Assembly (NCBI GenBank): GCA_016840095.1
Contig: JAEOSZ010000031.1
Coordinates: 64,001 to 128,000, forward strand
Length of the DNA: 64,000 bases
DNA from: Candidatus Heimdallarchaeota archaeon
GTDB taxonomy: Archaea > Asgardarchaeota > Heimdallarchaeia > Heimdallarchaeales > Heimdallarchaeaceae
Direction: 5' to 3'
Made by a program: the position numbers and the translations under genes. This document shows, piece by piece, positions 45,585-45,622 of this stretch (its first letter is position 1; every line of letters begins with the position of its first letter). Under the pieces are notes generated by a model that ran no database searches, was not told the DNA's origin, and saw only the letters and a program-made list of their open reading frames with translations.

Positions 45585-45622
45585 GACCTTTTAGATAAGG
45601 TCGCGACCTTCTTAACAAGGTT
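45585..45622. repeat. 38-bp double-dyad site; candidate recombination site or operator
   Basis: GACCTT-TTAGAT-AAGGTC-GC-GACCTT-CTTAAC-AAGGTT; central perfect 14-bp palindrome AAGGTCGCGACCTT; ends 3 nt before the recombinase ATG. Confidence 0.85.

What the first reader, a model, noticed from the sequence alone, without database searches (positions are those of the whole stretch)
45585..45622. 38-bp nested dyad immediately upstream of the serine recombinase
Seen: GACCTT-TTAGAT-AAGGTC-GC-GACCTT-CTTAAC-AAGGTT has four copies of GACCTT (the last with one mismatch) in alternating orientation. They form two 6-N6-6 inverted repeats at a 20-bp period and a central perfect palindrome AAGGTCGCGACCTT around a GC dinucleotide. 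It ends 3 nt before the ATG. Established: serine recombinases cut at a central 2-bp overlap within a dyad, and resolvase sites often overlap their own promoter. Inference: the cognate crossover or autoregulatory site; a symmetric GC core would allow recombination in either orientation. It could instead be a tandem operator for the RHH-like ORF. I noticed no second copy in the window, but an eye scan is not exhaustive.
Basis: partly seen in the sequence, partly recalled or inferred. Interest (0 to 1): 0.8.

Follow-up and report, generated by a model that had tools for sequence, protein, structure and literature searches.

The report
Conserved operator-like dyads before recombinase gene
The 38-bp double inverted repeat in front of a short serine recombinase gene of an Asgard (Heimdall) archaeon is real and strongly conserved, and it looks like a protein-binding switch inside the gene's own promoter, not the place where DNA is cut and rejoined.

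Summary
Window 45585-45622 holds two perfect ACCTT-N6-AAGGT dyads 20 bp apart, ending 3 nt before the ATG of a 243-aa serine recombinase with a catalytic domain and an LSR-type recombinase domain.

- **Conservation:** all 19 same-genus orthologous loci keep the dyads. The arms are 98% conserved, against 73% for third codon positions.
- **Proximal dyad:** it is kept in all five genera of the family.
- **Distal dyad:** it is found in only two genera, where it wraps a TATA-like box.
- **Central "GC" palindrome:** it is not conserved. It varies in sequence and is 2 or 3 nt long.
- **Copy number:** no second copy exists in this assembly or in two closed relatives.
- **Inactive orthologs:** orthologs in two genera have lost the catalytic Ser and Arg residues. 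They still keep the C-terminal HTH domain (71-74% identity) and the proximal dyad, so the dyad's role does not need catalysis.

My best reading is an operator in the core promoter between the TATA-like box and the predicted start site, most likely read by the recombinase-like protein itself. The adjacent RHH-like pair is the main alternative reader. A res/dif-like single-copy recombination site is not excluded, and the family lacks a conserved XerA.

An earlier follow-up in this scan, on another genome of the family, had already noted the conserved site and the missing XerA.

The parts
45605..45622 (.). Proximal dyad GACCTT-CTTAAC-AAGGTT. This is the ancient core element.
   Evidence: ACCTT and AAGGT are invariant in 19 same-genus loci. 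The dyad is also kept, with an N6 or N5 spacer, in genera g10, g13, g11 and g12.
45585..45602 (.). Distal dyad GACCTT-TTAGAT-AAGGTC. This is a lineage-specific second site that encloses the TATA-like box.
   Evidence: It is present in g1 and g10 only. In g13, g11 and g12 a plain TATA-like box occupies its place. The left arm is looser (GACCTT, AACCTT, TACCTT, AATCTT, TACATT). The spacer is 5 nt in one clade.
45589..45598 (+). TATA-like box TTTTAGATAA (inferred promoter element)
   Evidence: The T-rich core is conserved in all orthologs. In g13 it is a canonical TTTTATATT at the same distance. Genome-wide, TTTA[AT]A peaks 30 nt before start codons. Here it starts at -37/-36, which predicts a start site about 7 nt before the ATG.
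45617..45620 (+). Predicted transcription start inside the right arm of the proximal dyad (inference only)
   Evidence: The estimate adds the genome-wide distance of about 30 nt from the TATA start to the start of leaderless genes to the TATA-like box of each genus. The predicted start falls in or just after the right arm in all five genera.
45577..45583 (+). Conserved GTATTAC motif upstream of the TATA-like box, of unknown role (BRE-like position)
   Evidence: ATTAC is kept in the orthologs and also in the 46% paralogs' promoters. It is not a general promoter motif of the genome.
45626..46357 (+). 243-aa short serine recombinase (P0001): catalytic domain plus recombinase domain with an HTH, and no zinc ribbon or coiled coil
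   Evidence: Pfam Resolvase 5e-19. The motifs YVRTSTADQ and SRDRLSRD are present. In the AF2 model (pLDDT 79) the best Foldseek hits are SPbeta, Bxb1 and PhiC31 integrases over both domains.
44747..45112 (+). P0003, a small protein with an RHH-like N-terminus and a long helix. It is a candidate alternative reader of the dyads.
   Evidence: It has a conserved KQLTFNITQSRRIKNY start. The AF2 monomer shows a disordered strand region followed by two helices and a 60-residue helix. There is no Pfam hit and no significant fold match.
45109..45561 (+). P0002, a helical protein coupled to P0003 by a 4-nt overlap. Its stop lies 64 nt before the recombinase ATG.
   Evidence: Its C-terminal coding sequence is conserved directly upstream of the site in the genus.
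43995..44687 (+). Ras-like small GTPase, the first gene of the conserved neighbourhood
   Evidence: Pfam Ras 1e-10. Synteny is kept in g1, g10, g12 and g13. No dyad motif lies upstream of it.

Best explanation
The element is a pair of adjacent palindromic protein-binding sites (operators) built into the core promoter of the recombinase gene. The proximal dyad (45605-45622) lies between the TATA-like box and the predicted transcription start. The distal dyad (45585-45602), added in this genus and one sister genus, encloses the TATA-like box. A dimeric sequence-specific protein bound here would block TBP/TFB at the distal site and RNA polymerase recruitment at the proximal site, and so repress the gene. 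The most likely reader is the recombinase-like protein itself, through its conserved C-terminal helix-turn-helix (recombinase) domain. That would be negative autoregulation, as resolvases do at res. What is shown: the sequence, its conservation, its single-copy status, its position relative to promoter-like signals, and its persistence next to catalytically dead orthologs. What is inferred: the promoter assignment, repression, and the identity of the binding protein.
For: (1) Phylogenetic footprint. In 17 same-genus loci the dyad arms are 0.98 conserved, against 0.73 for third codon positions and 0.70 for the rest of the spacer. ACCTT...AAGGT next to the ATG is kept in all five genera that have the ortholog.
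(2) The sequence is conserved, not the pairing. Arm changes are one-sided and no compensatory change was seen.
(3) Half-site centres are 10-11 bp apart, one helical turn. This is the geometry of small dimeric DNA binders.
(4) Promoter overlap. Genome-wide, TATA-like words peak 30 nt before start codons. In every genus the TATA-like box of this gene predicts a start inside or just after the right arm of the proximal dyad, although the distance from dyad to ATG varies from 1 to 7 nt.
(5) The dyads stay with the recombinase gene when a 624-aa gene is inserted upstream (G050) or when the neighbourhood is broken (G052).
(6) Orthologs in genera g11 and g12 have lost the nucleophile Ser and the Arg residues. 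Their N-domain is 36-39% identical and falls below the Pfam cut-off, yet they keep the C-terminal HTH domain at 71-74% identity and keep the proximal dyad.
(7) Homologs with a different recognition helix lack the full dyad: L040 has PPSLIQRIRSN and the paralogs have RSTLAYMRKN.
Against: In solved integrase-DNA complexes the recombinase domain's recognition helix reads positions 9-11 from the site centre (PMC3783163). Two subunits of a canonical dimer are therefore not expected to read half-sites only 10-11 bp apart, so self-binding would need a non-canonical mode. The link between recognition helix and dyad rests on very few independent lineages. The TATA-like box sits 6-7 nt further from the ATG than in the genome's leaderless class, so the promoter assignment is an inference.
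Confidence: 0.4

Rival explanations
1. The operator sits in the same promoter, but it is read by the RHH-like proteins encoded just upstream (P0003, possibly paired with P0002) or by an unlinked transcription factor, which thereby controls expression of the recombinase.
For: Four subsites in alternating orientation, with centres 11, 9 and 11 bp apart on one face of the helix, resemble cooperative RHH operators such as CopG and Arc; this comparison is from my own knowledge. P0003 has a conserved strand-helix-helix start. P0003 and P0002 are present in every genome tested that has the dyad.
Against: The RHH assignment is unproven: there is no Pfam hit and no significant fold match. The putative DNA-facing strand residues of P0003 differ between genera (QTNT, KRNN, KTSN, QVDT), while the half-sites are invariant. 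No dyad lies upstream of the GTPase or P0003 genes, where RHH autoregulators usually bind.
Confidence: 0.25
2. It is a recombination site of the recombinase. This could be the crossover site proposed by the first reader. It could also be a single-copy res/dif-like site at which chromosome dimers are resolved, in a family that has lost XerA.
For: The site abuts the recombinase gene, as res does for tnpR and difSL does for xerS (my own knowledge). A resolution site is expected once per chromosome, and exactly one copy is found. A conserved tyrosine recombinase is found in 42 of 43 genomes of sister families. In this family only 11 of 26 genomes have hits, which are sporadic, and there are none in a closed genome. 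The serine recombinase occurs only in this family. It is more conserved than its neighbours. In the closed genomes the locus lies roughly opposite the cdc6 genes, which is weak support.
Against: The central GC is not conserved in sequence or length, and the distal dyad is absent in three genera. The spacer of the proximal dyad is 6 or 5 nt. The arms lie at positions 4-8 from the dyad centre, not 9-11. Conservation does not extend beyond 16-18 bp. Catalytically dead orthologs keep the dyad. No partner site for inversion or excision exists. There is no GC-skew switch at the locus, although the skew is uninformative here. The active 46% paralog is an equally good or better candidate for any Xer-like role.
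Confidence: 0.15
3. The dyads act as RNA (or single-strand) hairpins. They could be a 5'-leader structure that masks an SD-like AAGGT, or a 3'-end or terminator structure of the upstream operon.
For: Each dyad can fold. Loop length and sequence vary while the stems are kept. ACCTT-N5-AAGGT hairpins are enriched in intergenic DNA of this genome, with 5 of 8 intergenic against about 9% non-coding DNA. Some of them sit before T-runs.
Against: The folding energy is not unusual (z = -0.73). The stems show strict sequence conservation with no compensatory change, and some one-sided changes break pairs. AGGT lies at -8, off the genome's SD peak at -11/-10, and its distance to the ATG varies between genera. 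No T-run follows the dyads. If transcription starts where the TATA-like box predicts, the left arms are not transcribed.
Confidence: 0.07

Closest known systems
res sites of Tn3/gamma-delta resolvase (autoregulatory function)
   Same: A cluster of dimer-type inverted repeats lies immediately upstream of a serine recombinase gene and overlaps its promoter, with one copy per replicon. Binding would repress the recombinase gene.
   Different: res has three subsites of 25-34 bp with 12-bp half-sites, and a crossover subsite with a fixed centre. Here the dyads are only 16-18 bp, number one or two depending on genus, have no conserved crossover centre, and persist next to catalytically dead orthologs. 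The protein is a truncated large-serine-recombinase type, not a small resolvase.
Archaeal repressor operators overlapping TATA/BRE or lying between TATA and the start site (for example MDR1, LrpA, Phr; from my own knowledge)
   Same: A short palindrome lies between the TATA-like box and the predicted start site, and a second one lies over the TATA-like box. This geometry blocks RNA polymerase or TBP/TFB.
   Different: The cognate protein is not identified. No member of those regulator families is encoded next to the site.
Attachment and crossover sites of large serine recombinases (A118/LI, Bxb1, PhiC31)
   Same: The adjacent protein shares the catalytic and recombinase domains. The site is an imperfect dyad.
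   Different: att sites are 40-50 bp, with recombinase-domain contacts at positions 1-12 (bases read at 9-11) and zinc-ribbon motifs further out (PMC3783163). This protein has no zinc ribbon or coiled coil. The arms lie at 4-8 or 14-19 from the possible centres, and those centres are not conserved.
Xer/dif, including xerS-difSL where the site abuts the gene
   Same: It is a single-copy chromosomal dyad with a 6-nt spacer next to a conserved chromosomal recombinase, in a lineage without XerA.
   Different: dif is 11-6-11 and is cut by tyrosine recombinases (PMC8371274). Here the arms are 5-6 nt, the enzyme is a serine recombinase, and it is inactive in two genera.
Operators of ribbon-helix-helix repressors (CopG, Arc, omega)
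   Same: Several short subsites about one helical turn apart overlap a promoter, and a small protein with an RHH-like start is encoded nearby.
   Different: The RHH fold of P0003 is not established. The site lies downstream of the candidate RHH genes, not upstream of them.

Membership tests
Serine recombinase crossover site | A dyad centred on a fixed 2-bp overlap where both strands are cut | tested here: not met
   The centre of the 38-bp element is GC, AC, TA, CA or TC, or 3 nt, in different species. The distal half is absent in three genera. The proximal dyad has a spacer of 6 or 5 nt.
Serine recombinase crossover site | Recognition motifs placed where the DNA-binding domain sits (positions about 9-11 from the centre for the recombinase domain) | tested here: not met
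   The arms are at positions 4-8 from each dyad centre, or at 2-7 and 14-19 from the GC centre. The comparison is with PMC3783163. This is a geometric argument by homology, not a binding test.
Serine recombinase crossover site | Use depends on a catalytically competent recombinase | tested here: not met
   Orthologs in g11 and g12 lack the Ser nucleophile and the conserved Arg residues but keep the dyad.
Serine recombinase crossover site | A partner site for inversion or excision, or rearranged molecules in sequencing reads | tested here: not met
   No second copy was found by pattern or by profile in the own 89%-complete assembly or in closed genomes G054 and G055. Read-level evidence could not be obtained. 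A resolution site would need only one copy.
res-type autoregulatory site | Lies directly upstream of the recombinase gene and overlaps its promoter | tested here: met
   The site ends 3 nt before the ATG and encloses or follows a conserved TATA-like box at the expected distance. The promoter itself is inferred, not mapped.
res-type autoregulatory site | Bound by the recombinase itself | not testable with these tools
   Only indirect evidence exists: co-retention of the C-terminal HTH domain and the dyad, and their joint absence in homologs with another recognition helix.
Archaeal promoter operator | A conserved short palindrome overlapping TATA/BRE or lying between TATA and the start site | tested here: met
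   Arms are 0.98 conserved, and the position relative to the TATA-like box is consistent in five genera. The start site is inferred.
RHH operator | A cognate ribbon-helix-helix protein | tested here: inconclusive
   P0003 has a conserved strand-helix-helix pattern, but no Pfam hit and no significant structural match.
Xer/dif | An 11-6-11 dyad acted on by a tyrosine recombinase | tested here: not met
   The arms are 5-6 nt. No conserved PF00589 protein is found in the family.
Large serine recombinase (the adjacent protein) | Catalytic domain, recombinase domain, zinc ribbon and coiled coil | tested here: not met
   The catalytic and recombinase domains are present. The protein ends at residue 243, with no zinc ribbon or coiled coil. 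It is a truncated relative, not a full member.

The most novel reading that the evidence does not exclude
In Heimdallarchaeaceae, which have no conserved XerA, this short serine recombinase and its single-copy dyad form a chromosomal DNA-site and binder pair. It was first a res/dif-like resolution system. It has since become, or is becoming, a pure sequence-specific DNA-binding factor, and it is catalytically dead in two genera. It works together with the conserved GTPase and RHH-like neighbours, for example in chromosome resolution or segregation. The dyad would then be the site where this machinery acts, not merely a gene-regulatory operator.
Probability: 0.15. Interest if true: 0.85.

Novelty: new variant of a known kind. 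Interest (0 to 1): 0.55.

Why it matters
Archaeal serine recombinases have hardly been studied; one review says they "were never fully investigated" (PMC8371274). Here one of them is fixed in the chromosome of a whole Asgard family. It is more conserved than its housekeeping neighbours, and it is paired with a short, single-copy, deeply conserved DNA site.

The work gives a concrete protein and DNA pair that can be tested in vitro. It shows that the site's role outlives the loss of catalysis, which points to exaptation of a recombinase as a DNA-binding regulator. It also shows that the family lacks the otherwise near-universal XerA, which raises the question of how these archaea resolve chromosome dimers.

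If the plain reading holds, it is a neat but unsurprising case of promoter autoregulation.

Tried and rejected
- **Partner site.** Exact and one-mismatch pattern scans and an nhmmer profile of 18 ortholog sites found only the site itself. The next hit had E 0.23 and lay inside a patatin-like coding sequence. Pattern scans of G001, G050, G052, G053 and the closed genomes G054 and G055 gave chance-level hits.
- **Regulon idea.** A very similar GACCTT-CTTAC-AAGGT sits upstream of a 107-aa gene (contig C107). Only the closest relatives keep it as a dyad; elsewhere only AGGT plus the TATA box is kept. I rejected it as a conserved second site.
- **General promoter element.** ACCTT, ATTAC and CCTTCTT show no positional peak before start codons.
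- **Shine-Dalgarno reading.** AGGT lies at -8, against the genome peak at -11/-10.
- **Known RNA families.** Rfam gave nothing at the site or at the similar hairpins.
- **Repeat family.** blastn of the hairpin-bearing stretches showed no multi-copy element.
- **GC skew.** It is too noisy to place a terminus.
- **P0003 and P0002.** The protein atlas and Pfam gave nothing.
- **P0003 homodimer.** A test of residues 1-56 with complex prediction gave no verdict, with a score of 0.02. It counts neither for nor against binding.
- **Remnant dyad at the G050 insertion point.** None was found.

Full report
**The observation**

The sequence is exactly as described: GACCTT-TTAGAT-AAGGTC-GC-GACCTT-CTTAAC-AAGGTT at 45585-45622, followed by AAA and the ATG at 45626. 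The pattern GACCTT-N4-8-AAGGT occurs three times in the 64-kb window, all at this site. Shuffles give 0.22 on average, and none of 100 reaches three. The whole 3.44-Mb assembly has ten ACCTT-N6-AAGGT sites, and two of them are these adjacent ones.

The ORF that follows (P0001, 243 aa) has a Pfam Resolvase domain (5e-19) with YVRTSTADQ and SRDRLSRD intact. After RPPFGY it has a C-terminal domain with a helix-turn-helix and an NPIYRTGEVRW motif. An AlphaFold model (pLDDT 79) matches large serine integrases (SPbeta-type, Bxb1, PhiC31) over both domains. The protein stops before any zinc ribbon or coiled coil.

**Organism and neighbourhood**

Named homologs are from Heimdallarchaeaceae, which are Asgard archaea. 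The window is ordinary chromosome, with nadA/nadC, an aIF-2B-like gene and transporters. The recombinase follows a Ras-like GTPase and two small helical proteins, P0003 and P0002.

This order is kept in four genera of the family. It is an inherited neighbourhood, not a mobile element. The recombinase is 82-97% identical within the genus. That is more conserved than P0003 (52-76%), P0002 (64-85%) or the aIF-2B-like gene (62-91%). The ortholog occurs only in this family among 400 genomes of the phylum. A 46% paralog stands alone elsewhere in nearly every genome.

**Conservation of the site**

All 19 same-genus loci carry the element. In an alignment of 17 of them the four arms are 0.98 conserved. 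Third codon positions of the recombinase are 0.73 conserved, and the rest of the intergenic spacer is 0.70.

The conservation has a clear shape:

- **Proximal dyad.** ACCTT and AAGGT are invariant.
- **Distal dyad.** The right arm is invariant, but the left arm drifts.
- **Distal spacer.** It is 5 nt in one clade.
- **Central "GC".** It is GC, AC, TA, CA or TC, or three nucleotides, in different species.

Outside the genus, g10 keeps both dyads. The closed-genome genus g13 and the genera g11 and g12 keep only the proximal dyad, with a 5-nt spacer. They have a plain TATA-like box (TTTTATATT in g13) where the distal dyad would be.

So the ancient unit is one 15-18-bp dyad next to the start codon. 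The nested 38-bp form, and its central palindrome, is a later elaboration that is not itself conserved.

**Copy number**

No other copy exists:

- A profile of the ortholog sites finds only the site itself (E 4e-14). The next hit (E 0.23) lies in a coding region.
- The two closed relatives have the exact dyad once.
- A look-alike upstream of a 107-aa gene is a dyad only in the closest relatives.

**Promoter context**

I took about 1,900 crude ORFs with at least 60 bp of upstream spacer. In these, TATA-like words (TTTA[AT]A) peak sharply 30 nt before the ATG, which marks a leaderless class. AGGT peaks at -11/-10, which marks a Shine-Dalgarno class.

The T-rich core inside the distal dyad (TTTTAGATAA, 45589-45598) starts at -37. 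The equivalent box starts at about -40 in g10, -39 in g13, -34 in g11 and -32 in g12. Adding the genome-wide distance places the predicted start in or just after the right arm of the proximal dyad in every genus. This holds even though the distance from the dyad to the ATG varies from 1 to 7 nt.

AGGT in the right arm is off the Shine-Dalgarno peak. The dyad therefore covers the stretch between the TATA-like box and the predicted start, and the distal dyad covers the TATA-like box. These are the two classic positions of archaeal repressors; that last comparison is from my own knowledge. The promoter is inferred, because I could obtain no transcript data.

**Catalytically dead orthologs**

In g11 (P0041) and g12 (P0043) the catalytic loop reads YCRAVEKEE and YI---NEENEE. 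The SRDRLSRD motif is lost. The N-domain is only 36-39% identical and falls below the Pfam cut-off. P0043 is seen on several independent assemblies.

The C-terminal domain nevertheless stays 71-74% identical, including the recognition helix (VSILRNVRSN and VSRIRHIRNN, against VSTLRNIRSN here). The proximal dyad is intact in both genera.

Conversely, a 54% homolog with an active site but another recognition helix (PPSLIQRIRSN) has no such dyad at its start. The 46% paralogs (RSTLAYMRKN) keep only an ACCTT half-site.

Whatever the dyad does, it does not need recombination chemistry, and it travels with the C-terminal DNA-binding domain. This is the main reason I prefer a binding and regulatory role read by the protein itself. 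The number of independent lineages is small, so this is suggestive and not proof.

**Against a crossover site**

- The centre is variable and the distal half is absent in three genera.
- Geometry does not fit. In the LI integrase-attP structure the recombinase domain contacts positions 1-12 and reads bases at 9-11 from the centre (PMC3783163). Here the arms lie at 4-8 from each dyad centre, or at 2-7 and 14-19 from the GC.
- Conservation does not extend beyond 16-18 bp.
- No remnant of the site marks the rearrangement points in G050 or G052.

**For a recombination role, and the XerA gap**

A resolution site would be single-copy and could sit next to its gene. I also found that PF00589 tyrosine recombinases, which were detected in all 14 control genomes, give a strong hit of about 300 aa in 42 of 43 genomes of the sister families. 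In this family they give only sporadic, heterogeneous hits in 11 of 26 genomes. There is none in the closed genome G054 or in the 95%-complete G050.

The family thus appears to lack XerA and to have gained two conserved serine recombinase paralogs. In the closed genomes the locus lies roughly opposite the cdc6 genes, but GC skew is uninformative. This keeps a res/dif-like reading alive at low probability. Because this ortholog is dead in two genera, the active paralog is the better candidate for such a role.

An earlier follow-up of this scan on another genome of the family reported the same two points, the conserved site and the missing XerA. I reached them independently before reading it.

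**The other candidate reader**

P0003 starts with a conserved KQLTFNITQSRRIKNY, a strand-helix-helix pattern, followed by a long helix. P0002 starts with a similar strand.

Four subsites 11, 9 and 11 bp apart would suit cooperative RHH binding. However, the fold is not confirmed. The putative DNA-facing residues of P0003 vary between genera while the half-sites do not. No dyad precedes the GTPase or P0003 genes.

**RNA**

The two hairpins fold no better than shuffles (z = -0.73). They show no compensatory change and have no T-run after them. ACCTT-N5-AAGGT hairpins are, however, enriched in intergenic DNA. Some sit in small multi-hairpin non-coding stretches that are conserved in a relative. 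I could not link them to this site.

**Verdict**

| Reading | Probability |
|---|---|
| Promoter-embedded operator read by the recombinase-like protein | 0.40 |
| Same operator, read by the RHH-like pair or another factor | 0.25 |
| Recombination site | 0.15 |
| RNA element | 0.07 |
| Other or unknown | remainder |

Noticed in passing
whole family; own genome contig C106:7940-8095 holds only a fragment: A conserved XerA-type tyrosine recombinase (PF00589) is found in 42 of 43 genomes of sister families. In Heimdallarchaeaceae it is not found: 11 of 26 genomes have sporadic hits, and there is none in closed genome G054. This family alone carries two conserved serine recombinase paralogs.
   Followed up: partly
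L041:1891-2604 and L042:4001-4717 (genera g11, g12): The orthologs of the recombinase have lost the catalytic Ser and Arg residues but keep the C-terminal DNA-binding domain. They look like pseudo-recombinases exapted as DNA binders.
   Followed up: yes
own genome C31:9183-9932 (L010) and the paralog loci L029-L039: A 46% paralog with an intact active site stands alone in nearly every genome. Its promoter shares GTATTAC and ACCTT[CT]TT with this gene. It has a TTATAAGAAG box exactly 30 nt before the ATG, which fits a leaderless transcript.
   Followed up: partly
own genome C33:7360-7480, C45:83230-83345, C48:17950-18000, C57:6660-6760; G001 loci L053-L057: ACCTT-N5-AAGGT hairpins are enriched in intergenic DNA (5 of 8 sites). 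They sit in small multi-hairpin non-coding stretches, often after a CCTTCTTG...CAAGAAGG hairpin and before T-runs. The stems are conserved and the loops vary between relatives. They are candidate small RNAs with no Rfam match.
   Followed up: partly
whole genome: There are two classes of start-codon context: a TATA-like box starting 30 nt upstream (leaderless class) and an AGGTGA Shine-Dalgarno starting at -11/-10.
   Followed up: partly
L095:2445-4319 (G050): A 624-aa NosD/beta-helix gene is inserted between P0002 and the recombinase in one genus-g10 genome. The dyads stay with the recombinase.
   Followed up: yes
L040:3940-4003: This lies upstream of a distant active homolog (54% identity). 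ACCTTATGC and GCATAAG(AT)GGT form an inverted repeat 31 nt apart, around a GGGG...CCCC repeat and a TATA-like stretch. This is a different and wider arrangement of similar arms, seen in a single sequence only.
   Followed up: no
own genome C107:36832-36880 (L096) and orthologs L097-L117: A very strongly conserved promoter, AGGTAAATATATATAGTA, lies 30 nt before a 107-aa Cys-rich protein gene across the genus.
   Followed up: partly
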